Origin: Bacteroidales bacterium
GTDB lineage: Bacteria; Bacteroidota; Bacteroidia; Bacteroidales; JAQUTK01
Assembly: GCA_028709785.1 (NCBI GenBank)
Contig: JAQUTK010000010.1
Location: 29,467-93,466, forward strand
Length of the DNA stretch: 64,000 nucleotides
Direction: 5' to 3'
Position numbers and translations under genes: made by a program. The notes under the pieces were generated by a model. The model was not told the DNA's origin and searched no databases. It saw nothing but the letters and a program-made list of their open reading frames with translations. Of the stretch, positions 11,101 through 25,428 are shown one piece after another. The first letter of the stretch is position 1; the number at the start of each line of letters is the position of its first letter.

Positions 11101-12522
11101 GTCCGAATTACAGACCCAGGTAGGATCCGTCACCACCGTTTGCGTTGTTCCGTCGGTATATTGAATTACCAGTTTGGCGATAAAAGCAAGATCCTTATCC
11201 CCGTACATTCCACGGGCAATATTTCCTCTCCACCAGCCTGAAGCCACATGCGCCCCGATGGCATTTGCACCCGAGAGCAGGAGGGAAGTTACATCATACG
11301 TTGAGTATAGTACCGTCTTGCTGTAGTCCGTCCAACCCGGTTTCAGTTCGTCGTAAACCACTTTCCCGCTTTCTGTGGAAGTACCCACCCGGGTTCCATT
11401 GATAAACAGATCATAGACACCCAGCGCAGAGGTATAGATCTTCGCCGATTTTATCTTCCGATCCAGCTTAAATGTTGTTCTGAACATCGGAATTCCGGCA
11501 GCGCTCCCCTGAAACACACGAGAGTCATCGCCCGAGCTTACGAGCAATCGCCCATCAACCACCGGTCCCTGCGTAAACTGAAAATTGTCCGGATTGGAGA
11601 AGTTCTCCGCAAAAATCACTTTCTCAACCCCCTGAACCTTTGTGGTCACTTTGATATTATCAAACGAAGCAGACTCTTTATTCGAACTGGTTTCGCCATG
11701 CGAGGAACGGAAGCCCACACCTCCCAGACCATAATTGCCACCCCTTGGGTTTACCCGATTGGCATCTACCAGGATATTGTTGATATAGGTTGAAGCTTTA
11801 TCCCCTTTGACTTCGATCCGAAGCGTATACGTTACCCCCTTTTTGATCTCGATCAAACGAGTGATATCGATGTTTTCATGGCAAACCACATTGCCATCCT
11901 TCCAGGAATGAGGACGCAGACGGCTTTTCCCGTCCTTCTCGATATTGATCTGCCACATGTAAAAGTTATTTACGTCTTTGATCCCAAAGCAAGGACCTGC
12001 GGCAATCTCATTCAGGATAAAATCCATCTCAATCGTGTAATCCGTAGTGGCGCTCTTTGTTGCAGATGCCTTTTCCCCTTGCTTGAGCGTCGTTGCCTTG
12101 ATCCATTTGGCATTACCCCAACCCGTATCCATTAAGCCCGTTTCAAAGTAAGCAGTCTCTGAGGAAGAGATCTTTTTATTGTTCGCATCCCAAATATCCA
12201 CACGCCAGAAATAGCGGGTAGAAGGCATCAGAGCCACACCTGCGTAACTGTTGTTGATTGACTGGTCGGAGTTTACACGGCCTGAATTCCACACCGTTTT
12301 ATTTCCCGATCTGTCCGTCGAAACAATTATCTGATACGCTGTTTGTTTGGCGCCACGTTCGGAGGTGGAAAAGATCCAGCTGAATCGCGGTTTTTTCACA
12401 TCAATCCCGACGGGATTTTGGAGATATTCAGTGCGAAGATGCTTCACTTCAGGAGCATTTTTAGCCGGCAAACTGAATGAAAACAACAGGAAGAGTCCCA
12501 ATAAATAGAGTAGCTTTCTCAT
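8134..12522 (-). CDS. multidomain alpha-L-rhamnosidase (GH78) with an inserted lectin-like domain and a C-terminal GH43-like domain
   Basis: GH78 N-terminal signature LRTEYLQNPVGIDVKKPRFSW. Catalytic-region motif VPTDCPQRDERQGWTGD. The C-terminal ~330 aa (NPVFEGWYADPEGVIF...WAPAIIEKEKKFYLFFSA...EGPVMFRRNNKYYFMWSEG) match the GH43 five-bladed propeller pattern. Confidence 0.85.
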   Translation of the reverse strand: MRKLLYLLGLFLLFSFSLPAKNAPEVKHLRTEYLQNPVGIDVKKPRFSWIFSTSERGAKQTAYQIIVSTDRSGNKTVWNSGRVNSDQSINNSYAGVALMPSTRYFWRVDIWDANNKKISSSETAYFETGLMDTGWGNAKWIKATTLKQGEKASATKSATTDYTIEMDFILNEIAAGPCFGIKDVNNFYMWQINIEKDGKSRLRPHSWKDGNVVCHENIDITRLIEIKKGVTYTLRIEVKGDKASTYINNILVDANRVNPRGGNYGLGGVGFRSSHGETSSNKESASFDNIKVTTKVQGVEKVIFAENFSNPDNFQFTQGPVVDGRLLVSSGDDSRVFQGSAAGIPMFRTTFKLDRKIKSAKIYTSALGVYDLFINGTRVGTSTESGKVVYDELKPGWTDYSKTVLYSTYDVTSLLLSGANAIGAHVASGWWRGNIARGMYGDKDLAFIAKLVIQYTDGTTQTVVTDPTWVCNSDGPICMADIYSGETYDARKESDWKTAGYDDSKWLQTAVSDDFKGTMKAFVGPTVQVRTELNRKPATITVYEGKKDNGQTFGAINTIKVINGPGVVQLKKGQTAIYDFGQNMAGWVRFTAKSAVGTKMQIRFGEMVNDNGALARGNDGPAGSLYTANLRSAKATINYIFKGSERSESYHPSLTFFGFRYCEVLASEDVEIQSMTAEVVGNATEEGSTFKTSSAIVNQLYSNVIWGQRSNFLSVPTDCPQRDERQGWTGDTQIFSRTAAYNADVASFFHKWMGDMRDCQREDGAFPSTAPVIWGGHGQGAWAEAGIIVPWNVYLMYNDIEIITENYPEMEKYMDFLAAQKGDGYLYNGAGTSYGDWVSYEKLENRYVSVCYYAYAAQLMSKMSKVLSQTKGDRYDVKSNEYAALYGKIKAEFGKRYVNADGSLKEVSQTAYLLALKLDLFPTEAASKKGLSYLTQKIADNGNKLSTGFVGTGILNQTLSQYGATNTAYNLLLQRSNPSWIYSIDQGATTIWERWDSYTKDQGFHDVGMNSFNHYSYGAVEEWMYRYMAGIEADESAPGFKHFILQPNLDNRTTLPEGQERITSVDATFKSYYGDIKSAWEIRKDGNLAYTATVPANTTATLYLPLSKASDVVYEGLTLANKAKGVTFVKRENGKAVYELKAGTYSFGLNVPAKESHLLAQKAGNPVFEGWYADPEGVIFNNQYWIYPTYSAPYEKQVFMDAFSSKDLVTWTKHSSIIDTAQVKWANKAMWAPAIIEKEKKFYLFFSANDIQDDNSVGGIGVAVSDKPEGPFKDYLGKPLLDKFYNGAQPIDQFVFQDVDGQYYMIYGGWRHCNIAKLQNDFKAFTPFADGTTFKEITPEGYVEGPVMFRRNNKYYFMWSEGGWTGPDYRVAYAIGDSPFGPFKRIGLILQQDATIATGAGHHSVIQVPGTDEWYIVYHRRPLSETNGNSRVTCIDKMEFDANGTIKPVVMTFEGVSPKKLR

Positions 12523-12663
12523 AATTTTAGATTTAACGAAGCAGGTATTATTTGTTTTTATGTATAGATTTCAAAGGTACAAAAATACAAGAAGATACAG
12601 AAGCAGAACATTCAAAAATGATCAATAATGTTTCAAAATTGATTTCTCTCTTTCTATTGAGAA

Positions 12664-12762
12664 TTCTTCTTCTTCATCATCATCTTCTTCTCCTGTGGAG
12701 CATCTCTTTTTGTTCAAATAATTTTGAGGAAATAGAAGAGGAAGAAGATATAGATGAAGAAG
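12664..12762. repeat. imperfect polypyrimidine/polypurine inverted repeat
   Basis: The CTT/CAT-rich arm 12664-12694 faces the GAA/GAT-rich arm 12727-12762 (shared CTTCTTCATC and CTTCTTC blocks in reverse complement), with a ~32-nt spacer. Confidence 0.6.
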
Positions 12763-12806
12763 TAGTTTTATTTTTCTATGGTTTACTCTAGTATACTCTT
12801 CTCTGG

Positions 12807-12831
12807 TCTTCTCTTCTCTTCTCTTCTCTTC
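12807..12831. repeat. (TCTTC)5 pentanucleotide microsatellite
   Basis: Five perfect tandem TCTTC units read directly from the sequence. Confidence 0.9.
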
Positions 12832-13108
12832 TGTGCTTTTTGAAAAGTTCTATGTTGTTGTTATATAGTGAGATGTAATTTTGTTTTAACATAGTTTGTC
12901 ACACAAATTGAGGGTTCATCTATGTTAAATCACTCGTCAATCTTGTTTTTTGAATCAAAAAAGTAGCTTATTGTGCACTGCTTTTTACTGTCCACTTTTA
13001 CGAGAGCAGCTCATTTCTCAACCTCTTTTCTAGTCTGCGGATTAGAAAAACCAGATGTTTTTCCCCACGCTATTGAGTGATCAAACACGAATTCCCTGTT
13101 CTGCTCTT

Positions 13109-13174
13109 CGTTTGCCAATCGGTAACTTTCCGTTTGCCGATGGATGACTCCCCGTTGGCCTATTGGCAAACGAG
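13109..13174. repeat. 22-bp tandem repeat (three units) with an inverted copy of its core
   Basis: CGTTTGCCAAT at 13109, CGTTTGCCGAT at 13131 and CGTTGGCCTAT at 13153 are spaced exactly 22 bp apart. ATTGGCAAACG at 13162-13172 is the exact reverse complement of the first core. Confidence 0.8.
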
Positions 13175-13451
13175 ACGAACATCAGCTCGCATGAGATGCA
13201 CTGTCGTTTGTGTTTGAAAGTCTATAACTGTGGATTTAAGCGTTTATAACCGCTAAAGATATGTTTAATAACAATCCGCTGGAAACGTAAATATTTAAAA
13301 GTAATCCGGGTTAATCCGGAAAAATATAGATACATTTGTTTCATTACAATTAACGCTTTACTCTTTCGTTCATATTCAATTATATAGGGCGAGTCATTAT
13401 AGCTCATGCTAAAGAGGATAAAGGAATTCGATCATTTAAATTAAGATTACT

Positions 13452-15083
13452 TTGAATAATCAAGACAAAACCAAAGAAGAACTCATAAAGGAACTACAGA
13501 CATTAAAGCAAGCGCATGATGCCTTGAAAGTTTCTTTTGAAGAAAATATAAGCGAACGAAGGTTGATGGAAGCAGCTTTGAGCGAAAGTGAAAGCAAATA
13601 TCGCCTGCTGGCACAGAATAGCTCAGATGTGATCTGGACGTTGGACAACTACTATCGCTTTACCTATATCAGCCCATCCATCTACCAATTGCGAGGACTG
13701 ACATCCGAAGAGGCAATGCGCGAATCGATTCAGGATACTATGCCTCCTCATTCACTGGAAGTGGTTAATAAAATCATTGTTGAGAGCAAGGAACTGGAAC
13801 AGAAGAAGATGTATCCTCCCGTGCATATTGAAATTGAACAATATCACAAAGATGGACATTTGATCTGGGTTGACATTACTCTTCGCGTGATGTTAGATGA
13901 TAAAGGCGAGAAGATTGGCTATGTGGCTGCTTCCCGCAATATTACTGAACGCAAAATGGCTGAGAAAGCATTGCAAGAAAGTGAAGAAAATTTCCGCACT
14001 TTGGTTGATCAGGCAAAGGTTGTGATTTCTATTGTGGGAGATGTTCAGTGTTCAAAATATCTATATGTGAATGAAGAATGGTCGCGCGTTCAAGGATATA
14101 GCAAAGAGGAAGCACAAAACCTGAGACCTCTCGATTTGATAGCACCCGATTTAAGACCACAAATACTGGATTATGCGGCGAAACGCATGAACGGAGGTTC
14201 AGTTCCCAATAATTATGAGTTGAAGATAATCACTAAAAGTGGCGAAATAAAGTATCTTGATTTTTCTCCGACAATCATAACCTTTCAAAACCAAAAAGCT
14301 ATTTTAACAACCTCCATAGACCTTACCGAGCGAAAGAAAGCAGAAGAAACACTGCGAGAAAGTGAAGCCAAATTGAGAGAAAGTAATGCTCAAAAAGATA
14401 AATTCTTCTCGATCATTGCCCATGACCTTATAAACCCGTTCAACTCCATTATGGGATTCAGTGAAGTGCTGCTCAATCGAATCAATGAGAAAGATTATAA
14501 TGGCATTGACGAATATGCAAGGATGATAGGCCAATCCTCAAAACAAGCGATGGACTTATTGAAAAATCTATTGGAATGGTCGCGTGCACAAACAGGCCGA
14601 TTGCAGTTTAAACCTGAAAACTTTGATTTGGTGGATTTGATCGGACAATACATGATGCTTTTCGACTTGATTGCCTGCCAAAAATCCATTACCATCCATA
14701 AAGTGTTACCTCCTGAAATTATGGTTTTTGCTGATCAACAGATGATCGGTACAGTACTCCGGAATTTGATCTCCAATGCCATCAAATTTACCCCAAAAGG
14801 CGGTGATATTATTATTTCAGCAGAGAAAAGAGCTGATGAAATCCTTGTTTCAGTCAGTGATAACGGAGTAGGCATCGCACCGGAAAGACTTGAAAAGCTA
14901 TTTCACATTGATGAAAGCGATACAACCCCAGGCACAAACAACGAAAATGGAACCGGCCTTGGTCTGATCCTCTGCAAAGAATTTGTAAAAAATCATGGTG
15001 GTAAATTATGGGTAGAAAGTGAGAATGGAAAGGGTTCTACATTTTATTTTGCTCTTTCGAGTAGCACCGAGCCATTGAAATAA
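13452..15083 (+). CDS. PAS-domain sensor histidine kinase (coiled-coil, 2 PAS, HisKA, HATPase_c)
   Basis: Phospho-acceptor box FFSIIAHDLINP. ATP-binding N box LRNLISNAIKFT. G boxes DNGVGI and GTGLGL. SRNITERK PAS linkers. The TTG start at 13452 is uncertain. Confidence 0.85.
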   Translation: MNNQDKTKEELIKELQTLKQAHDALKVSFEENISERRLMEAALSESESKYRLLAQNSSDVIWTLDNYYRFTYISPSIYQLRGLTSEEAMRESIQDTMPPHSLEVVNKIIVESKELEQKKMYPPVHIEIEQYHKDGHLIWVDITLRVMLDDKGEKIGYVAASRNITERKMAEKALQESEENFRTLVDQAKVVISIVGDVQCSKYLYVNEEWSRVQGYSKEEAQNLRPLDLIAPDLRPQILDYAAKRMNGGSVPNNYELKIITKSGEIKYLDFSPTIITFQNQKAILTTSIDLTERKKAEETLRESEAKLRESNAQKDKFFSIIAHDLINPFNSIMGFSEVLLNRINEKDYNGIDEYARMIGQSSKQAMDLLKNLLEWSRAQTGRLQFKPENFDLVDLIGQYMMLFDLIACQKSITIHKVLPPEIMVFADQQMIGTVLRNLISNAIKFTPKGGDIIISAEKRADEILVSVSDNGVGIAPERLEKLFHIDESDTTPGTNNENGTGLGLILCKEFVKNHGGKLWVESENGKGSTFYFALSSSTEPLK

Positions 15084-15635
15084 AATGGTATTCAAAAGTT
15101 CTTTTCATACAGATCTCTGGACTCGAAAAAACAACAGAATGGCAAAACCTACAAACAAATGAACTGCTTGTAGCGTATGATCACAATCGGTGTTTTAGAA
15201 CAATTCGCCCTACCTTAAAGAATGATCAGATTCAACAGAAAAGGATGTTGAGAGACTGGACTCTGTCTTCACTGTCGATTCTGGAGATCTTTATGTGATT
15301 GGTAAATAATGAGTTGTGCTTTCAGAAATTGTATTCTGAAGGGCAATAAATTTCAACCTGAAGAAATTTATATTTTATCAGGTTCGGATGACAAAAAGTA
15401 TTAGATGTTTTTACCAAAACTATTAGAAGATTTTCGGCACTTTTCAGGCCGTTATTTGCGATGAAACCGGATCATACAAATCGGTGTTTTAGAACAATTT
15501 GAAGAATGGCAATACCAAGCATAGTAATGGAAAACTATACCTTAGGAGTGCAATACTTCAGAAAGAGCAGTTCGCCCTTGTGCATTGATCCACGCAAAGG
15601 CATCCGTGATGCGTTTGAAAGTCCTTAAACGAAAA

Positions 15636-16188
15636 TGCAACAGTTGTACAACGATTATTAGGCTATACCAAATGGGAGAACTTTGAAAAAGTAATTCTAA
15701 AAGCCAAAGATGCGTGCAGGAATGCAGGGGAAGAAAACGAAAACCATTTTCCTGACGTCAGGAAAACGATACCGATGCCAAAAGGTGCTGAAAAAGAGAT
15801 AGATGATATTCTTTTAACGCGTTATGCCTGTTATCTAATAGCACAAAACGGCGATCAAGCTCTTTTCAATATAAATACTCAACTATTGAAGCGAAAAATG
15901 GGAGTGCCTGATAGCCGACCAGTAGCCGATTTCTTACCGACAATAAGTATCAAAGCCAAAGACCTTGCCGCAGAAATGACTGGGCTGAATGTGCAAAACA
16001 AAGACCTGAAAGGGCAAGCCAAAATAGAAAAGGAACATGTTGACAATAATCTTGCTGTAAGAAATATGCTTACCCAACGGGGTATTGTACCGGAAAACTT
16101 ACCACCTGCGGATGATGTAAAGAAACTGCAACGAAAGCTCGATGGTGATGAAAAGAAAATGCTAAAAGGTACAAAAAAGAAGAACTGA
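15636..16188 (+). pseudogene. DinD-like (DNA-damage-inducible protein D family) remnant
   Basis: LLGYTKWENFEKVILKAKDAC...KGAEKEIDDILLTRYACYLIAQNGD matches the DinD core, but the N-terminal part is out of frame or stopped upstream of 15775 and the middle is shortened. Only ORF 15775..16188 remains open. Confidence 0.5.
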
Positions 16189-16254
16189 TGGAAATTCAAT
16201 AGAACATACCGAAGTTGCGATTTCCTGAGTTTGAAGGGGAGTGGAGATTAATCT
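16188..16254 (+). pseudogene. type I restriction-modification specificity subunit (HsdS) N-terminal remnant
   Basis: ATG GAA ATT CAA TAG is followed in frame by NIPKLRFPEFEGEW, the characteristic HsdS N-terminus. It is interrupted by a stop and abuts the recombinase fragment. Confidence 0.45.
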
Positions 16255-16395
16255 TTACACTGGTTACGACACTCGTATGCTACTCATTTATTGGAAACTG
16301 GCACCGATCTTAGATATATACATGAACTATTAGGACATAGAAGCAGTAAAACAACGGAGATTTACACTCACGTTACGTTACGGAAAAAAGTTTAA
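16255..16395 (+). pseudogene. tyrosine recombinase/integrase C-terminal remnant (46 codons)
   Basis: Translates to [46 protein letters not shown]-stop. This is the box II region with the catalytic His and Tyr. No upstream part of the gene exists. Confidence 0.75.
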
Positions 16396-16580
16396 AAAAA
16401 ATTGCCAACCCATTCGATCTTTTGTAATGAATTTAATATCTTTACAAAATAAATAAATAACTACTGACATTTATCAGCGTTATCCACCAGTATTTAGGTG
16501 CTAAAGGATGGTTCTGTCAGCGGTATATTGATGTTGGTGGCAAGGCAAGAAACCAAACTACCCCGAATTAAATTACTACT

Positions 16581-17177
16581 ATGATATTTGAAAGAGGACA
16601 TTTTAGCAACAGTAATATTCAAGAATCGTTTATCAACGAATCATTAAGAGACGTAAGGACATTTAGTTCTAAGTCTGCGTATTCGGCAAAACCCACTGTT
16701 TTCTTATCGCATAAACATGATGATTTGAAAGATTTACAAGGATTTATGGGTAAACTTCAAGAATTGGGAGCTAAAGTATATATTGACAGTATGGATAATA
16801 AAATGCCTGACCAAACTTCTGGAGATACTGCTATAAGGATAAAGGAGGTTATTAAATACTGTAATAAATTTATTTTGTTAGCAACAGAAAAAGCGATTGA
16901 ATCATACTGGTGTAATTGGGAGTTAGGAATTGGAGATACGCATAAATTTATTGAGCATATTGCAATTTTACCAATGAAGGAAAGAGGTTTAAATGATTTA
17001 CAGTACAAAGGGAATGAGTATCTCCAAATATATCCAAGAATAGATTATGAAGATGGTACGAATCACTATCGAAATAATGGAGGTATTATCCCCCAAGGAT
17101 ATTATGTTAGTAAACCTATAAATAAAGAGGGCATTAGGTACATTACTTTACTTACAGATTGGTTAAATCAAAAATAA
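16581..17177 (+). CDS. TIR-domain protein (additional ThsB-type sensor of the Thoeris locus)
   Basis: TVFLSHKHDD and FILLATEKAIESYWCNWELG resemble the bacterial TIR beta-A strand and catalytic Glu region. It lies 10 nt upstream of thsA. Confidence 0.7.
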   Translation: MIFERGHFSNSNIQESFINESLRDVRTFSSKSAYSAKPTVFLSHKHDDLKDLQGFMGKLQELGAKVYIDSMDNKMPDQTSGDTAIRIKEVIKYCNKFILLATEKAIESYWCNWELGIGDTHKFIEHIAILPMKERGLNDLQYKGNEYLQIYPRIDYEDGTNHYRNNGGIIPQGYYVSKPINKEGIRYITLLTDWLNQK

Positions 17178-17187
17178 TATAATAAAT

Positions 17188-18627
17188 ATGCCATTTGATA
17201 GAGAAATTGAAGCGTTTATTAAGAACTTTGTTCTAGACCTTTCAGAAAACAATGTAGCTATATTTGCAGGAGCAGGAATGTCCAAAGGAGCTGGGTATGT
17301 CGATTGGTCAGAACTTTTAAATGATATAGCTGAGGAAATAGGATTAAATGTAAAAATTGAAAGTGATTTAATTTCTTTAGCTCAATATCATGTAAATGAA
17401 CGAGGTGGAAAAGCTGGAATAATTAAGAAAATACTACAGGAATTTTCAGAACAAGCAGAACCTTCAGATAATCATAAACTTTTAGCACGATTGCCTATCA
17501 CGACTTATTGGACAACTAATTATGATACACTTATTGAAGATTCTTTAAAAGATGCATTTAAGATTGTAGACATTAAACATCAAGTTGAACAATTATCCAA
17601 TACTAGACCGAAAAGAGATGTTGTTTTGTATAAAATGCATGGTGATGTTCACCACCCAGCTGATGCAATTCTTACAAAGGAACAATATGAATTTTATTAT
17701 AGAACCCATGAGCATTTCATTACAGCTTTAAGTGGCGATTTAATTTCAAAGACATTTCTATTCATTGGTTTTAGTTTTACCGACCCTAATCTTGATTATG
17801 TATTAAGCAGACTAAATTATCAGTTTGGAGATATTAACAAGCAGCATTATTGTTTTATTAAAAAAGAGAGTAAAGAGACAGATGATGATGATGAAGTTTT
17901 CAAATACAAACAAAGAAAACAGAAATTAAGAGTTGATGATTTAAAGCGTTATAGAATTAAAGCACTATTAGTTGATAATTATATCGATATTACAGAGATA
18001 CTTAAAGAAATTGAAAAGCGGTATATAAAGAAAACCATTTTTATATCCGGCAGTGCGGAGGAATATGGCCAATGGGATAGAAACCAAGCCCAATCTTTTG
18101 TTCATACTATGAGTAAAAAGATTGTAACCTCAAATTTTAGAGTTGTAAATGGTTTTGGTTGGGGCATCGGTAGCGCTGTAATTAATGGTGCGTTAGAAGC
18201 TGTTTATGAGAGACCAGATAAATATTCAGAAGACCAATTAATAATAAAACCATTTCCTCAATTTGAAACAGGTGGGAAAAAACTATCCGAACTTTGGGAG
18301 GATTATCGTCAAAGAATGATAGCACTTGCAGGTATTGCTGTTTTTATTTTTGGCAATAAAAGTGATGGGAAAGGAGCCGTTATTCCAGCAAATGGAGTTA
18401 TGAGAGAATTCGAGATTGCTGTTCAGCATGGCTTAATTCCAATTCCGATTGCAGGAACTGGCTATATTACTAATGACATTTACAAAGAGATACTGAAAAG
18501 TCCTGAAAAGTATTATACTGGTATAGAATGGATAATTCCAATTATTAAAGAGCTTGCTTCTGATAAACTAACGGTTGACGAAATAATAAAAAAGGTGCTA
18601 TTCATAATTCAAACAATTAATAAATAA
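17188..18627 (+). CDS. thsA: Thoeris ThsA (N-terminal SIR2 NADase, C-terminal SLOG domain)
   Basis: Colinear by eye with Bacillus cereus ThsA: IFAGAGMSKGAGYVDW, LARLPITTYWTTNYDTLIE, VLYKMHGDVHHP, TFLFIGFSFTDPNLDYVLSR, then the SLOG part IFISGSAEEYGQW...VVNGFGWGIGSAVINGALE. Confidence 0.9.
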   Translation: MPFDREIEAFIKNFVLDLSENNVAIFAGAGMSKGAGYVDWSELLNDIAEEIGLNVKIESDLISLAQYHVNERGGKAGIIKKILQEFSEQAEPSDNHKLLARLPITTYWTTNYDTLIEDSLKDAFKIVDIKHQVEQLSNTRPKRDVVLYKMHGDVHHPADAILTKEQYEFYYRTHEHFITALSGDLISKTFLFIGFSFTDPNLDYVLSRLNYQFGDINKQHYCFIKKESKETDDDDEVFKYKQRKQKLRVDDLKRYRIKALLVDNYIDITEILKEIEKRYIKKTIFISGSAEEYGQWDRNQAQSFVHTMSKKIVTSNFRVVNGFGWGIGSAVINGALEAVYERPDKYSEDQLIIKPFPQFETGGKKLSELWEDYRQRMIALAGIAVFIFGNKSDGKGAVIPANGVMREFEIAVQHGLIPIPIAGTGYITNDIYKEILKSPEKYYTGIEWIIPIIKELASDKLTVDEIIKKVLFIIQTINK

Positions 18628-18631
18628 AGCT

Positions 18632-19120
18632 ATGGCAAGAAAATCATTTTTTAGTTTTCATTTTAAAGGCGATAACTGGCGGGCTGGAATTGTCCGTAAT
18701 AGTTGGGTAACTCAAGATAGAGAAGCTGCTGGTTTCTTTGATTCTGTTGAATGGGAAAAAGTTAAAAAAAAGAATGATAGTGATATTGAGGCTTGGATTG
18801 ATAGTCAATTAAAGGGAACTTCTGTCACAGTAGTTTTAATTGGAGAGAATACCGCAGGTAGAAAATGGATAAATTATGAGATTACAAGCAGCTATAAAAA
18901 AGGAAATGGTCTCTTAGGTATTTATATTCATAATTTAAAAGATAAAGACCAAAAGACAAGTAATAAAGGACGAAGCCCTTTTAGTGATTGGTATGTAGAA
19001 AAGGATGGTAAAAAAGTCTATTTTTCTGACATGTATGATACTTATGATTGGGTTAATGATGATGGTTATAAAAATATGGGTGATTGGATTGAAAAAGCCG
19101 CAAAGAAAGCAGGAAAATAA
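18632..19120 (+). CDS. thsB: Thoeris ThsB (DUF1863/TIR-like)
   Basis: FFSFHFKGDNWRAGIVRNSWVT...AAGFFDSVEWEKVKKK...SVTVVLIGENTAGRKWINYEITSS is colinear with B. cereus ThsB, including the YEI Glu. Confidence 0.9.
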   Translation: MARKSFFSFHFKGDNWRAGIVRNSWVTQDREAAGFFDSVEWEKVKKKNDSDIEAWIDSQLKGTSVTVVLIGENTAGRKWINYEITSSYKKGNGLLGIYIHNLKDKDQKTSNKGRSPFSDWYVEKDGKKVYFSDMYDTYDWVNDDGYKNMGDWIEKAAKKAGK

Positions 19121-19128
19121 ACCCTAGC

Positions 19129-19259
19129 CGTCAACAACGGCTATACCCAATGCGGATTTCAGCGGTTTTGCAAGTTAAGTTCCCGCAGGCAAGGTTTGCA
19201 TCGTGGGATACAGACGCAGCCACGCAATCCCGCACTGGGCATAGCCGCGAACGTATAAG
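19129..19259 (+). repeat. attC-like recombination site 1 (131 bp)
   Basis: Starts with CGTCAAC and ends with GTATAAG. Inner arms GGCTATACCCAATGCGGATT (19139-19158) and AATCCCGCACTGGGCATAGCC (19226-19246) pair with one extra base. It is GC-rich in an AT-rich context. Confidence 0.6.
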
Positions 19260-19280
19260 GCAGTTTTAAAATCACACTAT

Positions 19281-19985
19281 ATGACAGAGAATATAAAGAA
19301 AATTAATAATCCTTTGACAATAATTGCAATATTTGCAGCTCTTGCAGAAATAAATGCAACTGTTTCTTTAGGTTTAATACCAGAAAATCTTCAAGCCATC
19401 TTTATTTGGTTTATTCTAGCATTTCCCACCTTACTTGTCATTTGCTTTTTCTTAACACTTAACTTTAACCCACGAGTAATGTATGCTCCAAGTGATTATA
19501 AAGACGAAAAGAACTTCTTGGATACGATTTCAGGGCGATTTAAAGAAATGCAATTCAATGTAACAAAGGACAATATAATTGAAATTGAGCAGAAATTACA
19601 GGCTGAAAGCATTGACATTTTGGATCGTTATGAGTCAAGCGACATTTCAATTAAGATGTTGAATTATGGAAATAGTTTCTTTTCTGAATTGATTTCCTTG
19701 TTTAAAAATAAACTTGAAGAACATGTATTTGACTCTTTTGGATTTGGAATTCAATCCGAAGATTTGTTTTTATTGTCGATAGTTTTAAATAAACATAGAT
19801 TCCCAAAAAATTTTGCGACTGATCACAATTACATATTGCGATTCACTGAAAAACAAGGTAAAGTTATTGGAGAAATTGCAGGGAAAAATATCAAGAGCGA
19901 CAGTTATAAAACTCTTTCAAAGCAAACCTTTGAATTAATTGAAAAAATGATAAGTCAGAGCATAGTCAAGAAAACCGCCTTATAA
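19281..19985 (+). CDS. hypothetical membrane protein (two N-terminal TM helices plus ~160-aa soluble domain), cassette A cargo
   Basis: Hydrophobic segments LTIIAIFAALAEINATVSLGLI and AIFIWFILAFPTLLVICFFLTL. I recognise no family motif. The stop codon lies inside the next attC-like site. Confidence 0.6.
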   Translation: MTENIKKINNPLTIIAIFAALAEINATVSLGLIPENLQAIFIWFILAFPTLLVICFFLTLNFNPRVMYAPSDYKDEKNFLDTISGRFKEMQFNVTKDNIIEIEQKLQAESIDILDRYESSDISIKMLNYGNSFFSELISLFKNKLEEHVFDSFGFGIQSEDLFLLSIVLNKHRFPKNFATDHNYILRFTEKQGKVIGEIAGKNIKSDSYKTLSKQTFELIEKMISQSIVKKTAL

Positions 19986-20109
19986 CATTAGCTACCCGCA
20001 AGGTCGGCGGCAGTTGGTATTCGGTGGGCATCTTTCCGCTCAAACTGTTTTTCGGCTTGACAGAAAATCTCCCGCAATCCGCCCCTGCGTGTAGCTTCCT
20101 GCGTTACAT
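19980..20109 (+). repeat. attC-like recombination site 2 (130 bp)
   Basis: Starts with TTATAAC (contains the TAA stop of the upstream ORF) and ends with GTTACAT. Arms TAGCTACCCGCAAGGTCGGCGG and CCGCCCCTGCGTGTAGCT pair imperfectly. Confidence 0.6.
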
Positions 20110-20176
20110 GGCATTTAAAGGACAATACCCATAAACTCAACTAATAGTGTTATTATTAATATTAAAATTTTCAGTG

Positions 20177-20752
20177 ATGAGTATTCATCCAACAATTATA
20201 GCTGCTATTATAACAACATCAGGAGCCATTATAACTGCTATAATTACTAAAAAAGAGTGGATTCTATTTTTTGAAAAACCGAAAATTAAATTAGATGGAA
20301 AATGGAAAGGCATATCAATTTATGTTCCTTTAGAAAACGATAACGATTTAGAATGTGTTTATAAAATAAACGCTGATATTGAACAAAAAGGGCGAAGGAT
20401 TAAATTAACTGAGAATATATATGAAATACTTGACTTTAACAACAATGTTCTACGTAAAGAACCGAGGACATTTGTAGGTAAAGGAAAAATAATGAGAGAA
20501 CAAGATATAACTATTGATTTTAATGAAAAGAGAGGCTTGACTTGTGGTGTTATGTATTTGGTATCTGATTATTGGGGTAATGAATTAAAAGGTCTAATGG
20601 CCGTTACTAATCCTTACTGTGGAAAACCTGTCGTTGTTAAGATTCTTTTGAGAAGGGTAGATAAAGAAGATATTAAAGTTGATGATTTAGGATTTAATTA
20701 TCTTAGGCCCATATATACACATTACTTTGACATTAATTCAAATAAAGAATGA
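20177..20752 (+). CDS. hypothetical single-pass membrane-anchored protein, cassette B gene 1
   Basis: N-terminal TM IHPTIIAAIITTSGAIITAIIT is followed by a ~160-aa domain with no motif I recognise. ATG 20177 is preferred over GTG 20147. The stop overlaps the next gene start (ATGA). Confidence 0.55.
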   Translation: MSIHPTIIAAIITTSGAIITAIITKKEWILFFEKPKIKLDGKWKGISIYVPLENDNDLECVYKINADIEQKGRRIKLTENIYEILDFNNNVLRKEPRTFVGKGKIMREQDITIDFNEKRGLTCGVMYLVSDYWGNELKGLMAVTNPYCGKPVVVKILLRRVDKEDIKVDDLGFNYLRPIYTHYFDINSNKE

Positions 20753-21324
20753 GTAATATATTGAAAATAAGAATTTCTGATAAAATACTTCTAAAGCAAA
20801 TTGAGTATATAGATGCCGAGATTATTTTTAAAACAATAAATAGTCAGAGAGAAAGCCTTCGAAAATGGTTGACATTTATAGATACAACAAAAAAAATTGC
20901 AGATACTCAAAAATATATTAAAAGTGTAATTGATGTTCCTGACGAAAATCGTGAGTATATTTTTGTAATATTTTATGATAGTGTTTTTGCTGGTTTAATC
21001 GGTTTTGAAGGAACAAATAAGTACAACAAAAAAACAGAAATTGGTTATTGGCTTTCTGAAGATTATAGAAAAAAAGGGATTGTTACTGAATCTGTCAAGG
21101 GATTAATGAGATTTGCATATAAAGACTTAGAGATTAATAGAATTCAAATTAAATGTGCTGTTGGAAATATTCAGAGTAGTAATATTCCTAAACAACTAGG
21201 TTATAAATTCGAAGGAATTGAACGAGCAGGAGAATTACTTTCAGATGGAACTTTTACTAATGTTGAAGTTTATAGTTTACTAAAGTATGAATTTGATGAT
21301 TTAACAAACAAAAATGCCATGTAA
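20749..21324 (+). CDS. GNAT family N-acetyltransferase (RimJ/RimL-like), cassette B gene 2
   Basis: The EIGYWLSEDYRKKGIVTESVKGLMRFAY acetyl-CoA binding region (R/Q-x-x-G-x-G/A-like RKKG) and overall length match the Acetyltransf_3 type. Confidence 0.8.
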   Translation: MSNILKIRISDKILLKQIEYIDAEIIFKTINSQRESLRKWLTFIDTTKKIADTQKYIKSVIDVPDENREYIFVIFYDSVFAGLIGFEGTNKYNKKTEIGYWLSEDYRKKGIVTESVKGLMRFAYKDLEINRIQIKCAVGNIQSSNIPKQLGYKFEGIERAGELLSDGTFTNVEVYSLLKYEFDDLTNKNAM

Positions 21325-21447
21325 CACGCGGTATATAAAATTGCCGGTTCAGTAGGTTATTTATGAGTTGTAGCTCGCTTCAACTTTTGTGTAACAAGAT
21401 AGGAAATCGCCTGCAATCGGCAACTTTTCATACCGCCGCTGTTGTAC
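21319..21447 (+). repeat. attC-like recombination site 3 (129 bp)
   Basis: Starts with ATGTAAC (contains the GNAT TAA stop) and ends with GTTGTAC. Arms GCGGTATATAAAATTGCCGGTT and AATCGGCAACTTTTCATACCGC pair imperfectly. Confidence 0.6.
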
Positions 21448-21482
21448 GCCATAATAAAAAGCCGAAAACGACCACTTTGATT

Positions 21483-21740
21483 ATGAAGATTAGATTTGCA
21501 AATGGATTGATTGATAAGCTAGAATATAGCAATCATGACGATTATGAGACATATCCGAATTCGGTTTTCATCTGTGATAAATGTGGCGATAAAATTGGAT
21601 TTGCGTATAAGGATTTAGAAAAACATAGATTCTCAAAGAATTCAAATCTAAATGGTAATGATAAAATTATTGCTGATAAATTGATTCTTTCGATGATCCC
21701 AAAGTACAAGATTGAAAAAAAATACAGATTTCGGCATTGA
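21483..21740 (+). CDS. small hypothetical protein with a CxxC knuckle, cassette C (possibly the 5' half of a split gene)
   Basis: ATG 21483 lies just after attC-like site 3. Contains FICDKCGDK. Ends 18 nt after an A8 run (21715-21722). Confidence 0.45.
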   Translation: MKIRFANGLIDKLEYSNHDDYETYPNSVFICDKCGDKIGFAYKDLEKHRFSKNSNLNGNDKIIADKLILSMIPKYKIEKKYRFRH

Positions 21741-21964
21741 CTAATCGAGACAGATTAATCGTAAGGATTCAAAGACTTTATCTAAGAATGATTGGTGTAA
21801 AAGGATTTTTTTTACCAATACCAAAGATTAATGAAAATATTCCAGATTCATATATTGATTATTACTGCCCCAAATGCCAAACACCTATAAGGATTTATTA
21901 TAGTAGTTTTATGGGTGGTAGTCATTGTGAAATAGGTTTTGAAATTAAGTATGTAATGAATTGA
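21737..21964 (+). CDS. small hypothetical protein with a CxxC knuckle, cassette C (possibly the 3' half of a split gene)
   Basis: Only a TTG start is available (TTGA overlap). Contains YYCPKCQTP. This frame would be joined to the upstream ORF by a single extra A in the A8 run. Confidence 0.35.
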   Translation: MTNRDRLIVRIQRLYLRMIGVKGFFLPIPKINENIPDSYIDYYCPKCQTPIRIYYSSFMGGSHCEIGFEIKYVMN

Positions 21965-21967
21965 AAT

Positions 21968-22201
21968 CACTAGTGTCCACTAAATGCTAAAATATTATCC
22001 TATAACCAATTGGATTTATGCAATTTACAAGCGAATTTTTGTGTCCACGATTTGAATTCCCAGATTTACTCCATAAGAAAGAATTGAACCAATCTATATT
22101 GGTAAGTTGGGCTATACCCTATCAAGAGCCTACTCTCGCAAGTGTCTGAGATTGAAGATGAATTTTAATTATGTCTTAATTTCTTTTAGTGGACACTAGT
22201 G
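21968..22201. mobile_element. 234-bp MITE with 17-bp perfect terminal inverted repeats and a 9-bp target-site duplication
   Basis: CACTAGTGTCCACTAAA (21968-21984) and TTTAGTGGACACTAGTG (22185-22201) are exact reverse complements. They are flanked by direct AATTGAAAT at 21959-21967 and 22202-22210. There is no ORF inside, and an internal third GTGTCCAC copy lies near 22041. Confidence 0.8.
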
Positions 22202-22226
22202 AATTGAAATAATAAAAAATTACGGC

Positions 22227-22356
22227 GCACAACACAGTATATACTCCATAGGGGTTTCAGAGGTATGCCAAGTGCATCGCTCGCTGGAAAGGTTTTTACC
22301 AGCGGATAGTGAAGCGTCCACGAAATCCCCTACGTAGCATATACTCAACGTCTATT
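22227..22356 (+). repeat. attC-like recombination site 4 (130 bp)
   Basis: Starts with GCACAAC and ends with GTCTATT. Arms AGTATATACTCCATAGGGGTTT and AAATCCCCTACGTAGCATATACT pair imperfectly with one extra base. Confidence 0.55.
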
Positions 22357-22388: not shown

Positions 22389-22697
22389 ATTTATTACGAT
22401 AATATTTCAAATCTATCTATGGTTGTAAATATCAGCTTAAGCAGGAAAAACTCGCTGTTTTGTGGCAGCCATGCTGGAGCAAAGAGATCGGCATTGATCT
22501 ATTCACTGGCGTGTTCCTGCAGGCTGCACGGAATAAACACCTTCGAATACTTCACAGACGTACTCAATCGGATGACCTCTATCAGCTCGAACGCTTCAGA
22601 CGATAGATATCGGGAGCTTCTTCCAAATTACTGGAAATAGCAAGCGTAAGAAAACGGGCTTTTGAATATTCCTATACGGTATCGTGGAGACGCTTAC
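22389..22697 (+). mobile_element. truncated IS66-family element: 3' end of the transposase gene plus right terminal repeat
   Basis: ISLSRKNSLFCGSHAGAKRSALIYSLACSCRLHGINTFEYFTDVLNRM matches the conserved IS66 TnpC C-terminus. The sequence ends ...GAGACGCTTAC at 22697 (complement of the GTAAGCG IS66 terminus). The rest of the IS is missing. Confidence 0.7.
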
Positions 22698-23983: not shown

Positions 23984-24607
23984 ATGATGACATTATCTGA
24001 AATAGGGAATATACCTGTTGATTTTGCAGTCTTGAAATCGATATTTCCGGATCATAAATCTGTACACAATAAAATCAGTGAGTTGGAAAAGTCTGGAACA
24101 CTTATCAGGCTTAAGAAAGGCATGTACGTACTATCTCCCAAAGAAAGTGGAAAATTAATATCTGTGGAGCTTGTTGCCAATCACCTATACGGACCGTCTT
24201 ACGTTTCGAAGGAGTCGGCTTTACGTTATTACGGACTAATTCCGGAAAGTGTTTATTCTGTTCAATCAATGACTACAAAGCATTCAAGGGTTTTTGTTAA
24301 TTCACTTGGAAAATTTGAATATACACAATGTGAAAAGTCTTATTTTTCAGTTGGTATCAGACAGGAAATAATGGACAATACCTCGTTTCTTATTGCCTGT
24401 CCGGAGAAAGCCTTGTGCGATTTAATCATCCATACACCAAACCTGAATTTGCGTTTTCAGAAAGATATGCTTGCTTATCTGAAAGATGATCTTCGCTTCG
24501 ATATGGATGCTTTCTATCGGATGGATAGTTCTCTTTTTGAGCAATGTGCACAGATGGGAAAGAAAAGGACTGTTATTGAGAATATGATCAAAATCAAACA
24601 ACGATGA
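23984..24607 (+). CDS. type IV toxin-antitoxin system AbiEi-family antitoxin/transcriptional regulator
   Basis: N-terminal winged-helix-like region (KISELEKSGTLIRLKKGMYVL) followed by GPSYVSKESALRYYGLIPE. 4-bp overlap with the AbiEii gene. Confidence 0.75.
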   Translation: MMTLSEIGNIPVDFAVLKSIFPDHKSVHNKISELEKSGTLIRLKKGMYVLSPKESGKLISVELVANHLYGPSYVSKESALRYYGLIPESVYSVQSMTTKHSRVFVNSLGKFEYTQCEKSYFSVGIRQEIMDNTSFLIACPEKALCDLIIHTPNLNLRFQKDMLAYLKDDLRFDMDAFYRMDSSLFEQCAQMGKKRTVIENMIKIKQR

Positions 24608-25428
24608 ACAATATCTTCGAGCAGATGCTCTCGCACTATCAGATAGTTACTGAAAAAGATCGTCGTAATGCTATCTATGAAGTGATGCAACAAATCACAT
24701 TAGCTGGTCTATATCGTGGAGGCTTCTTTAATAAAGCTGCCTTCTATGGAGGCACTTGCTTAAGAATATTTCATCAACTGGAAAGGGCTTCAGAAGATAT
24801 GGATTTTTCGCTTTTAGCTCCTGATAAAGCATTTAAGTTAGATGAATACTTTCCGGCAATCATCGAAGAGTTTAACACCTTGGGGAGAGATGTTGTGATC
24901 ACCAAAAAGAATAAACAAAATTTCGGTAAGGTTGAGTCTGCTTTCTTGAAAGATGACACTGAAGTGTACGATGTCGCATTTCAAACGGAAAGAGGATTAA
25001 AAATAAAAATAGAGGTGGATACTCAACCTCCCTTAATGTTTCAGACCGAACAAAAATTGCTGTTACATCCTTTTTCTTTTATGACACGTTGCTTTACGCT
25101 TCCGGATTTGTATGCTGGAAAGATGCATGCTCTGATTTTCAGAAGTTGGAAGAATCGTGTGAAAGGTCGTGATTGGTATGACTTTGAATGGTATGTAAGA
25201 AAGGGTATTCAATTGGATTTCGTGCATCTTCAAGAGCGTATCCGAGAGTTTAATGGCATTGAAATGGATAAAGAAGAGTTTATCAGATTGCTAAAAGAAC
25301 GGCTAGCCTCTACTGATATTAAAATGGTAAAGCACGATGTTGAACCTTTTATTAAGAATCCGGCTAGCCTTGAAATATGGTCAAATGACTACTTTCTACA
25401 GTTGGCAGATAGGATAAAGTTGGAATAA
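24604..25428 (+). CDS. nucleotidyltransferase AbiEii/AbiGii-family toxin
   Basis: FYGGTCLRIFHQLERASEDMDFS (nucleotidyltransferase GG...D.D region) and GRDWYDFEWY. Paired with the upstream AbiEi. Confidence 0.8.
   Translation: MNNIFEQMLSHYQIVTEKDRRNAIYEVMQQITLAGLYRGGFFNKAAFYGGTCLRIFHQLERASEDMDFSLLAPDKAFKLDEYFPAIIEEFNTLGRDVVITKKNKQNFGKVESAFLKDDTEVYDVAFQTERGLKIKIEVDTQPPLMFQTEQKLLLHPFSFMTRCFTLPDLYAGKMHALIFRSWKNRVKGRDWYDFEWYVRKGIQLDFVHLQERIREFNGIEMDKEEFIRLLKERLASTDIKMVKHDVEPFIKNPASLEIWSNDYFLQLADRIKLE

What the first reader, a model, noticed from the sequence alone, without database searches (positions are those of the whole stretch)
19129..22356. Integron-like gene-cassette array: four ~130-bp attC-like palindromes that obey the split-site rule, with no integrase in the window
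Four GC-rich elements of nearly identical length sit directly 3' of plus-strand ORF groups in an AT-rich block. They are 19129-19259, 19980-20109, 21319-21447 and 22227-22356 (129-131 bp each). Each begins with an ...AAC box (CGTCAAC, TTATAAC, ATGTAAC, GCACAAC), and in two of them the TAA stop of the cargo gene lies inside the box. Each ends with a GT-initial box (GTATAAG, GTTACAT, GTTGTAC, GTCTATT). Each has imperfectly paired inner arms with single unpaired bases and a shared AATCC(C)GC-type motif in the 3' arm. The strongest evidence is that the first ~15 nt after each GT box is the reverse complement of the ~15 nt ending at the NEXT ...AAC box. GTTACATGGCATTT (20103-20116) versus AAATGCCATGTAAC (21312-21325) matches 14/14. 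GTTGTACGCCATAAT (21441) versus ATTACGGCGCACAAC (22219-22233) matches 13/15. GTATAAGGCAGTTTT (19253) versus AAAACCGCCTTATAAC (19971-19986) has one gap and one mismatch. This pattern is expected if each unit (850, 1338 and 909 bp) was once a circular cassette whose recombination site was opened at G|TT, as in integrons. The boxes deviate from the canonical GTTRRRY, the complementarity is longer than the usual 7 bp, and to my knowledge integrons are not a well-described feature of Bacteroidales. This could therefore be a divergent or undescribed cassette-capture system, present here as an integrase-less cluster.
Basis: partly seen in the sequence, partly recalled or inferred. Interest (0 to 1): 0.85.

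Follow-up and report, generated by a model that had tools for sequence, protein, structure and literature searches.

The report
Decayed integron-like cassette array, Bacteroidales
The four 130-bp palindromes are real recombination sites of an integron-like gene-capture platform whose enzyme gene survives here only as a stump, and related genomes show the same platform across Bacteroidota, run by an integrase that lacks the domain used to define integron integrases.

Summary
The window (a Bacteroidales MAG contig) holds a whole but dead platform. It consists of a 3' stump of a tyrosine-recombinase gene (16258-16427, 5'-truncated and frameshifted), an attI-like site whose crossover G is at 16533, and four cassettes closed by the four attC-like sites.

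Full-length relatives of the stump occur in Bacteroidota. A covariance model finds 103 such sites downstream of them and co-oriented, against 2 upstream. The split-site rule holds for 74 consecutive site pairs. The first cassette junction lies about 100 nt after the integrase stop in more than 30 loci. Stem pairs covary. Non-Watson-Crick positions are G·T on the bottom strand 147 times and on the top strand 3 times, which points to a folded single strand as substrate.

The integrase resembles IntI and XerA but lacks the IntI-specific insertion. It scores below the integron-integrase cut-off and carries an extra N-terminal domain. Published integron surveys select on that insertion, and I found no description of this family. 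I rate it a new variant of a known kind. The window copy is a fossil, and two of its four GTT cores are mutated.

The parts
16258..16427 (+). 3' remnant (about 55 codons) of the platform's tyrosine-recombinase (integrase) gene. It keeps HWLRHS...LGH...IYTHV...PFDLL*. It is cut off on the 5' side by a junction with an hsdS N-terminal fragment, and frameshifted by a 5-bp tandem duplication (ACGTT).
   Evidence: Three-frame translation. It is 76-91% identical to C-termini of Bacteroidota integrases. Full-length relatives are 350-500 aa.
16428..16535 (+). attI-like site. It has a direct repeat (T)CAGCG(G)T(T)AT, small palindromes, and the conserved ...TAT...A/T-GTT end. The crossover G is at 16533, 106 nt after the remnant's stop codon.
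   Evidence: In more than 30 loci the first-cassette junction (13-14 of 15 matches to the first attC's R'' box) lies 75-135 nt after the integrase stop. The window's best match (10/15) is at the same place. The attI alignment A6 shows the same architecture.
16534..19253 (+). Cassette 1 (2.7 kb): a complete type I Thoeris system, ThsB (16581-17177), ThsA SIR2-STALD (17188-18627) and ThsB (18632-19120), followed by attC e1.
   Evidence: Pfam. PADLOC gives ThsA 3e-204 and ThsB 2e-65 and 3e-69. There is no attC between the three genes.
19129..19259 (+). attC-like site e1. AAC is at 19133-19135. The R' core is degraded to GTA at 19253-19255.
   Evidence: (76 bits with the independent model).
19254..20103 (+). 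Cassette 2 (850 bp): one ORF, 19281-19985 (234 aa, membrane-like N-terminus, no family hit), plus attC e2.
   Evidence: Distant homologues lie next to model-positive sites in 3 of 11 metagenome loci.
19980..20109 (+). attC-like site e2. AAC is at 19984-19986 and GTT at 20103-20105. It is 87% identical to a site in a Prolixibacteraceae MAG (L031).
   Evidence: (95 bits).
20104..21441 (+). Cassette 3 (1338 bp): ORF 20147-20752 (unknown function) and a GNAT acetyltransferase at 20749-21324, plus attC e3.
21319..21447 (+). attC-like site e3. AAC is at 21323-21325 and GTT at 21441-21443. It is 85% identical to a site in a Lentimicrobiaceae MAG (L070).
   Evidence: (99 bits).
21442..22350 (+). Cassette 4 (909 bp): two small overlapping ORFs (21483-21740 and 21737-21964), a MITE-like insertion (21956-22213), and attC e4.
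22227..22356 (+). attC-like site e4. AAC is at 22231-22233. The R' core reads GTC at 22350-22352. This is the distal end of the array.
   Evidence: (74 bits).
22419..22640 (+). C-terminal fragment of an IS66-family transposase, marking where the array is cut off.
   Evidence: NCBIfam transpos_IS66 1e-12, matching profile positions 341-386 of 387. Pfam DDE_Tnp_IS66_C on the identical gene in L087.

Best explanation
The region 16258-22356 is the fossil of an integron-type gene-capture platform. In working relatives a tyrosine recombinase gene is followed, about 100 nt after its stop codon and in the same orientation, by an attI site. After that comes an array of promoterless cassettes, each ending in an attC-like site about 124 nt long.

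Shown by computation:
- Each cassette starts with about 15 nt that are the reverse complement of the 15 nt ending at its own AAC box. Each cassette was therefore once a circle carrying one complete hairpin site, which was opened at or next to G|TT and joined to attI or to another attC.
- The hairpin stems covary.
- Their wobble positions are pairable almost only on the bottom strand.
- The sites are found almost only downstream of this integrase family.
- In the window the integrase is reduced to its last 55 or so codons, and two of the four GTT cores are mutated.

Inferred:
- The integrase recombines the folded single-stranded bottom strand of attC with attI, as IntI does, and the product is resolved by replication.
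- Cassettes are transcribed from upstream, possibly by read-through from the integrase gene.
- The window's array is now frozen because the enzyme is gone.
- Its first cassette supplies Thoeris anti-phage defence.

The recombinase is related to IntI and XerA but lacks the IntI-specific insertion that contacts the extrahelical bases in canonical integrons. It has an extra N-terminal beta/alpha domain of about 75 aa instead. Site recognition probably differs in detail from canonical integrons.
For: Window anatomy.

Site family:
- Model R1 gives 123 matches at E<1 in 85 related loci. Nearly all lie on the strand that matches the window's orientation.
- At E<0.001 there are 103 sites downstream of the integrase (306 kb searched) and 2 upstream (619 kb). 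Of 43 loci with at least 1.5 kb downstream, 35 have a site.
- The independent model R2 recovers the four window sites at 74-99 bits.

Structure:
- 94.8% of cells are paired, against 67% in shuffles and 33-45% when partners are slid. There are 402 double changes against 117.
- RNAalifold predicts 23 pairs, 18 with compensatory changes.
- 147 bottom-strand-compatible G·T positions against 3 top-compatible in the first 15 stem columns.
- The bottom strand is more stable by 3.1 kcal/mol (Wilcoxon p=2e-5).

Circular-cassette signature: 8.86 of 12 matches to the next site, against 4.35 (own site) and 4.40 (other sites). There is a constant A/G difference at position 11, which is a bottom-strand G·T.

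attI: junctions lie 75-135 nt after the stop codon with 13-14 of 15 matches, and the architecture is conserved.

Cassette style: the longest ORF is on the + strand in 102 of 104 cassettes, and median cassette length is 1085 nt.

Integrase:
- Pfam domains Phage_int_SAM_4 plus Phage_integrase.
- TIGR02249 scores 194-214 bits, below the 265 cut-off, in two stretches that skip profile positions of about 180-254.
- Against IntI4 (2A3V) it has 22 residues where IntI4 has 64.
- XerA and IntI4 are the top structural matches.

Cargo: Thoeris. Restriction-modification and pAgo-like systems occupy the first cassettes of relatives.
Against: No recombination has been observed. Everything is inferred from sequence.

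I could not compare strains of one species, so there is no direct presence/absence polymorphism of a cassette. No cassette protein was shared between arrays.

The window's attI junction matches e1's R'' box only 10 of 15.

The single-base bulge in the stem lies on the opposite arm from the extrahelical bases of canonical attC sites (the canonical positions are from my own knowledge of attC aadA7/VCR).

The alignment used for pair counts was fitted to the model.

In 8 of 43 loci with enough downstream DNA the first-pass model found no site.

A canonical IntI elsewhere in these genomes cannot be excluded, because whole genomes were not searched.
Confidence: 0.88

Rival explanations
1. This is an ordinary integron remnant (CALIN). 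The sites are standard attC sites served by a canonical IntI encoded elsewhere in the genome, and the neighbouring Xer-like recombinase is a bystander.
For: The sites have the canonical layout: AAC...GTT boxes, an imperfect palindrome, a split-site junction and co-oriented ORFs. Canonical integrons are known in Chlorobi and Ignavibacteriae, which are relatives of Bacteroidia (10.1101/2022.02.28.482270).
Against: Site density is about 100-fold higher downstream of this integrase than upstream. The first cassette junction lies at a fixed distance of about 100 nt from its stop codon in more than 30 loci from several orders. A conserved attI follows the gene. The window and the Chlorobaculum-like locus both carry remnants of this family, not of a canonical IntI, next to the array. 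Integron surveys report essentially no integrons in Bacteroidia.
Confidence: 0.05
2. The platform is real, but it recombines double-stranded sites in the manner of Xer/dif modules or ordinary att sites. The hairpin potential would then be incidental, for example serving as transcription terminators.
For: The enzyme's core aligns end to end with XerA and lacks the IntI insertion that reads extrahelical bases. The elements sit at gene 3' ends, where terminators are expected.
Against: The strand asymmetry (147 bottom-strand G·T against 3) has no meaning for duplex DNA. Compensatory changes keep the stem while the sequence drifts to 58-65% identity. The split site is one half of a 15-bp stem that exists only in the folded or circular form. 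The sites lack the T-run of intrinsic terminators.
Confidence: 0.05
3. The elements are a REP/MITE-like dispersed repeat family that happens to lie between genes and has nothing to do with cassette capture.
For: They are GC-rich palindromes in intergenic DNA.
Against: There are only four copies in 64 kb, all in one array. There are 2 sites in 619 kb upstream of the integrases against 103 in 306 kb downstream. The junction complementarity rule is not a property of REPs.
Confidence: 0.01

Closest known systems
Canonical integrons (IntI + attI + attC cassettes; for example class 1, Vibrio cholerae VchIntIA/VCR)
   Same: An array of co-oriented, mostly single-ORF cassettes, each ending in an imperfect palindrome with conserved AAC...GTT. 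The crossover is at or next to G|TT, which gives the split-site rule. attI lies next to the integrase gene. The bottom strand is favoured for folding. The integrase has SAM_4-type core-binding and catalytic domains and an IntI-like C-terminal tail (K..SPFD). Cargo includes defence systems, as reported for Vibrio chromosomal integrons (10.1101/2024.07.02.601686).
   Different: The integrase lacks the IntI-specific additional domain and falls below the TIGR02249 cut-off. It has an extra N-terminal domain. The gene is co-oriented with the cassettes, and attI lies after its stop codon. The R stem is about 15 bp with a fixed G·T at position 11, rather than 7 bp. Site length is almost invariant at about 124 nt across orders. 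The bulge lies on the other arm. First cassettes of 5-8 kb occur.
'Inverted-integrase' integrons (Treponema denticola, Chlorobi, Planctomycetes, Cyanobacteria group)
   Same: [quoted passage not shown] This arrangement occurs in the Bacteroidetes/Chlorobi lineage (PMC4889954, PMC2426708).
   Different: Those integrases were collected precisely because they contain the additional domain (PMC2426708). The family found here does not contain it.
[quoted passage not shown]
   Same: The window copy is, in function, an array without a working integrase.
   Different: A recognisable integrase stump and an attI remain. Whether IntegronFinder's attC model would call these sites is untested.
Archaeal XerA / bacterial XerC-XerD and dif modules
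   Same: The recombinase core is as close to XerA (5HXY) as to IntI4. Dif modules are also gene units bounded by Xer sites.
   Different: Xer sites are 28-bp duplex sites. In dif modules the sites alternate in orientation, and there is no adjacent dedicated integrase or attI. Here the sites are 124-nt folded hairpins in direct orientation behind a dedicated gene.
Type I Thoeris (ThsA SIR2-SLOG + ThsB TIR)
   Same: Cassette 1 encodes ThsB-ThsA-ThsB with full-length PADLOC matches.
   Different: Here the system is packaged as a single three-gene cassette bounded by attI and an attC-like site.

Membership tests
Integron (sensu Messier & Roy 2001 / IntegronFinder) | Integrase is a tyrosine recombinase carrying the IntI-specific additional domain around patch III | tested here: not met
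   Six full-length relatives score 194-214 bits on TIGR02249 (cut-off 265), in two stretches that skip profile positions of about 180-254. Against IntI4 (2A3V) there are 22 residues where IntI4 has 64. The predicted structure shows no inserted helix there. The window's own remnant starts after this region, so it cannot be tested directly.
Integron | attI site adjacent to the integrase gene, where cassettes are inserted | tested here: met
   The junction matching the first attC's R'' box lies 75-135 nt after the stop codon in more than 30 loci. In the window it is at 16533. The architecture is conserved.
Integron | attC sites: imperfect palindromes with R''/L''...L'/R' boxes, conserved AAC and GTT, and conserved structure with divergent sequence | tested here: met
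   AAC/GTT pairs are about 99% conserved. 94.8% of stem cells are paired, with 402 double changes. 18 of 23 alifold pairs show compensatory changes. The window sites are only 58-65% identical to each other.
Integron | The bottom strand is the folded substrate, marked by extrahelical bases on the '' arm and an unpaired central spacer | tested here: inconclusive
   Bottom-strand preference is strong: 147 against 3 G·T positions, and an energy difference with p=2e-5. An asymmetric spacer exists (5-6 nt against 2-3 nt). The single-base bulge tends to lie on the ' arm, unlike canonical sites.
Integron | Cassette boundaries at G|TT, so that each cassette starts with the complement of its own R'' box | tested here: met
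   Three of three internal junctions in the window. 74 pairs in other loci give 8.86 of 12 against 4.4 for controls.
Integron | Cassettes are mostly promoterless single ORFs co-oriented with attC | tested here: met
   The longest ORF is on the + strand in 102 of 104 cassettes, and the median length is 1085 nt. Promoters were not assessed.
Integron | Sites are recognised by IntegronFinder's attC covariance model | not testable with these tools
   The attC_4 model is not available here, and Rfam has no hit in the window.
Integron | Integrase-catalysed excision and insertion of cassettes | not testable with these tools
   This needs an experiment or population-level long reads.
CALIN | At least 2 attC sites within 4 kb of each other and no integron integrase nearby | tested here: met
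   There are four sites 850-1338 bp apart. The only integrase sequence is a non-functional stump of about 55 codons. Formally this depends on the IntegronFinder model, which was not run.
Type I Thoeris | ThsA with SIR2 and SLOG/STALD domains plus at least one TIR-domain ThsB in one operon | tested here: met
   Pfam SIR2_2 plus STALD, TIR_2 and ThsB_TIR. PADLOC gives ThsA1 3e-204 and ThsB1 2e-65 and 3e-69.

The most novel reading that the evidence does not exclude
Bacteroidota (Bacteroidales, Cytophagales, Flavobacteriales, Chitinophagales and Chlorobia) carry a large, so far unrecognised class of integrons. Its integrase lacks the 'defining' IntI insertion and uses other determinants to recombine folded single-stranded attC sites. 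Candidates for those determinants are the extra N-terminal domain, a 15-bp R stem with a fixed G·T wobble, and a bulge on the other arm. Standard surveys miss the class because they filter on the IntI domain. The class stocks whole defence systems (Thoeris, restriction-modification, Argonaute-like) as cassettes.
Probability: 0.45. Interest if true: 0.9.

Novelty: new variant of a known kind. Interest (0 to 1): 0.8.

Why it matters
The IntI-specific domain is treated as necessary for integron recombination and is the filter used by intI surveys that state their criterion (PMC2426708, and the IntegronFinder work as I know it). As a result Bacteroidota are described as a clade 'previously found without any integrons' (10.1101/2024.07.02.601686).

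If this family is active, three things follow:
- Integron-type capture of single-stranded cassettes does not require that domain.
- A major environmental phylum has a cassette pool that has not been counted.
- The question of how a tyrosine recombinase chooses the folded bottom strand becomes testable with a second, independent solution. Cultured strains are available: Flavobacterium luteum, Flavobacterium terrisoli, Algoriphagus jejuensis, Algoriphagus ornithinivorans and Cyclobacterium xiamenense.

For the window itself the lesson is more modest. A Thoeris system and three other units reached this genome as cassettes and are now fixed in a dead platform.

Tried and rejected
- Two hand-written hairpin/box scanners were too strict and missed known sites. 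I replaced them with covariance models.
- The first integrase search returned only fragments of 55-95 aa. This is probably a bias of the word-index candidate list towards short proteins, and I drew no conclusion from it.
A 65-site model without window sequences was built instead.
- Cassette-level polymorphism could not be shown. The only other contigs carrying window genes are identical (L001, L087). The genome collection holds one genome per species, so no two loci share flanks. The Chlorobaculum-like contigs are identical to one another.
- No cassette protein is shared between arrays at E<1e-10.
- Rfam has no family here, and no group II intron in L017.
- Eight literature searches found no description of this integrase-array family. 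This covers only the open-access library.
- The REP, terminator and Xer-dif readings were rejected, as set out under the rival explanations.

Full report
**1. The observation**

The distances between their G residues are 850, 1338 and 909 bp. The stop codons of ORFs 19281-19985 and 20749-21324 lie inside the AAC boxes. The repeat finder independently reports the 14/14 inverted repeat between 20103-20116 and 21312-21325 (I13).

Each element folds into a long imperfect hairpin. With DNA parameters the bottom strand is as stable as the top strand or more stable: -28.3/-26.0, -24.2/-18.2, -20.2/-20.2 and -27.0/-21.4 kcal/mol.

Every site has the same layout...AAC, 3-4 nt, a stem of about 20 bp with wobbles and a bulge, a central part, the returning stem, 5-6 nt, then GT(T).

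**2. What surrounds the elements**

The window comes from a Bacteroidales MAG. Its proteins are MDD48220xx on a 98-kb contig.

Upstream of the reported start lie three co-oriented genes with no hairpin between them: TIR (16581-17177), SIR2-STALD (17188-18627) and ThsB-TIR (18632-19120). Together they form a complete type I Thoeris system.

Further upstream, translation reveals the C-terminal 55 or so codons of a tyrosine recombinase at 16258-16427: [40 protein letters not shown] / [14 protein letters not shown]. The reading frame is broken by a 5-bp tandem duplication (ACGTT). The gene is cut off on its 5' side, where it abuts the first 14 codons of an hsdS gene.

Downstream of e4 lies the C-terminal fragment of an IS66 transposase.

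The AT-rich block (GC about 0.29-0.37, against about 0.47 in the flanks) is therefore bounded by gene wreckage on both sides.

**3. Relatives**

The recombinase remnant matches Bacteroidota sequences at 76-91% identity.

In a Chlorobaculum-like contig (L002), a similarly truncated gene is followed by hairpins of the same design. They carry the same long R-box motif, AAAACCAGCCCATAAC ... GTTATGGGCCAGTTT.

A scan of one genome per species found more than 590 loci, and 80 were fetched. All are Bacteroidota: Bacteroidales, Prolixibacteraceae, Lentimicrobiaceae, Algoriphagus, Cyclobacterium, Flavobacterium and Chitinophaga. Most carry a full-length gene of 350-500 codons.

A covariance model built from the four window sites and three L002 sites found only the four sites in the window (filters off). 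In the 85 related loci it found 123 matches at E<1. At E<0.001 there are 103 sites in the 306 kb downstream of the integrase genes and 2 in the 619 kb upstream. Of the 43 loci with at least 1.5 kb of downstream DNA, 35 have at least one site. All sites have the orientation seen in the window.

A second model, trained on 65 sites from other genomes only, recovers exactly the four window sites at 74-99 bits.

**4. Evidence that the sites are structured single-strand recombination sites**

On 112 aligned sites, 94.8% of stem cells pair. The figure is 67% when partners are shuffled and 33-45% when they are slid. There are 402 double changes against 117 expected. That alignment was fitted to the model, so I also ran RNAalifold, which predicts its own structure. 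It predicted 23 pairs, 18 of them with compensatory changes.

In the first 15 columns of the stem, 147 non-Watson-Crick positions are G·T on the bottom strand (A·C on the top strand). Only 3 are the reverse. The bottom strand is also more stable on average, by 3.1 kcal/mol (RNA parameters, Wilcoxon p=2e-5).

The AAC-to-GTT length is almost constant, with a median of 124 nt and an interquartile range of 122-124.

**5. Evidence for circular cassettes**

I examined 74 consecutive site pairs outside the window. The 12 nt after GTT match the reverse complement of the 12 nt before the next AAC at 8.86 of 12 on average, with a mode of 10-11. The match to the same site is 4.35, and to unrelated sites 4.40.

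The complementarity runs for about 15 nt. It has a constant A-versus-G difference at position 11, which is a G·T wobble on the bottom strand. The window's junctions e1>e2 and e3>e4 show exactly this difference.

The sequence that pairs with the first attC's R'' box lies 75-135 nt after the integrase stop codon in more than 30 loci, with 13-14 of 15 matches. The window's best match (10/15) is at 16533, 106 nt after the remnant's stop.

The stretch between the stop codon and this junction has a common architecture: a direct repeat, small palindromes, and ...TATAnAnnnAGTT. The window shares it. This stretch is an attI.

**6. Cassette properties**

The longest ORF is on the array strand in 102 of 104 cassettes. 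Median length is 1085 nt, with a range of 284-8493 nt. No protein is shared between arrays, as expected for a very diverse cassette pool.

The four window sites are only 58-65% identical to each other. However, e2 is 87% identical to a site in a Prolixibacteraceae MAG, and e3 is 85% identical to one in a Lentimicrobiaceae MAG. This fits independent acquisition from a shared pool rather than local duplication.

Distant homologues of the cassette-2 protein lie next to model-positive sites in 3 of 11 metagenome loci.

First cassettes in relatives carry type IIG, type III and type I restriction-modification systems and an Argonaute-like gene.

**7. The enzyme**

The integrases have Phage_int_SAM_4 and Phage_integrase domains. 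Their best NCBIfam hits are recomb_XerA_Arch ('tyrosine recombinase/integron integrase', 207-226 bits against a cut-off of 220) and integrase_gron (194-214 bits against a cut-off of 265). The integrase_gron hit comes in two stretches that leave out profile positions of about 180-254.

Against the solved VchIntIA (2A3V), residues 116-283 align with 11-178 and residues 306-381 align with 243-318. The family therefore has 22 residues where IntI has 64. Against XerA (5HXY) the alignment is continuous.

A predicted structure (mean pLDDT 73) shows no inserted helix at that place. It shows a confident N-terminal beta-beta-alpha-beta-beta-alpha domain of about 75 residues, which has only a weak DUF5710 resemblance. 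XerA and IntI4 are the best fold matches.

**8. Comparison with what is known**

The system works like an integron in every respect I could test: attI, attC, the split site, strand bias and cassette style. It fails the feature used to define integron integrases.

Surveys that selected intI by the additional domain (PMC2426708), IntegronFinder 2.0 (only In0 elements in Bacteroidetes, plus Salinibacter, Chlorobi and Ignavibacteriae) and the taxon-specific attC models (no Bacteroidota; PMC8352920) do not report it. A 2024 preprint counts Bacteroidota among clades 'previously found without any integrons'. [quoted passage not shown]

I found no paper describing this family. The library searched is open-access only, so prior description cannot be excluded.

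**9. Verdict for the window**

The window holds a dead platform: ΔintI – attI – [Thoeris] – [234-aa protein] – [unknown + GNAT] – [two small ORFs + MITE], cut off by an IS66 fragment.

Two of the four R' cores have decayed (GTA at 19253 and GTC at 22350). This is consistent with loss of the enzyme.

The mechanism by which the family recombines is inferred, not shown.

Noticed in passing
window 21956-22213: A MITE-like insertion inside cassette 4. It has 17-bp perfect terminal inverted repeats (CACTAGTGTCCACTAAA) about 200 nt apart, flanked by a direct duplication of about 10 bp (GAATTGAAAT). The only other contig carrying this region (L087) breaks inside it, which suggests a multi-copy element.
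   Followed up: partly
window 15775-16247: Wreckage upstream of the integrase stump. There is a C-terminal fragment of a DinD-like protein (PADLOC PDC-S13; NCBIfam DNA damage-inducible protein D). It is followed by the first 14 codons of a type I restriction specificity subunit (IPKLRFPEFEGEWR), fused directly to the integrase remnant.
   Followed up: partly
window 16372-16381: The frameshift in the integrase remnant is a 5-bp tandem duplication (ACGTTACGTT). Removing one copy restores ...[18 protein letters not shown].
   Followed up: yes
window 15174-15205 and 15468-15499: A 32-nt direct repeat (84% identical, ...AATCGGTGTTTTAGAACAATT) lies 294 nt apart in the non-coding stretch after the histidine-kinase gene. 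Its meaning is unknown.
   Followed up: no
window 23984-25428: Just beyond the array there is an AbiEii-domain gene (24604-25428) with an upstream partner ORF. The neighbourhood looks like a small defence island (Thoeris, AbiE, and restriction-modification remnants).
   Followed up: no
window 12640-12830: A low-complexity, AT-rich intergenic stretch with TTC/CTT-type runs (cttcttcttcatcatcatcttcttctcc ... tcttctcttctcttctcttc) lies upstream of the histidine-kinase gene.
   Followed up: no
L017 11493-18700: Three copies of an IS of about 1.75 kb (534-aa transposase, DUF772 + DDE_Tnp_1_6) are each inserted exactly after the GT of an attC R' core (GT|CAAACTGTCTAAAAACCA). This IS appears to target these attC sites, which recalls the IS1111-attC elements of canonical integrons.
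   Followed up: partly
L016, L021, L043, L059 (first cassettes, about 10260-18000): Very large attI-proximal cassettes (5-8 kb) are bounded by a matching attI junction and attC. They carry type IIG, type III and type I restriction-modification genes and a pAgo-like gene. L072's unit of this kind carries an AcrB-type efflux pump.
   Followed up: partly
L002 2640-3102; P0081; many hits: Several integrase genes of this family are internally deleted, with the N-terminal domain fused to the last 70 or so residues (Chlorobaculum-like contig, Cyclobacterium lianum). Fragments of 55-95 aa dominate the first protein search. Part of this may be a ranking artefact of that search.
   Followed up: no
L049:11751, L043:17903, L040:3887, L067:14791 (alignment A8): Nearly identical attC subtypes recur in different genera (Chitinophaga, a Bacteroidia MAG, Algoriphagus) next to unrelated cargo. 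The central part of the sites also carries conserved motifs (for example CTGTCAA), so it is not a free 'variable' loop.
   Followed up: partly
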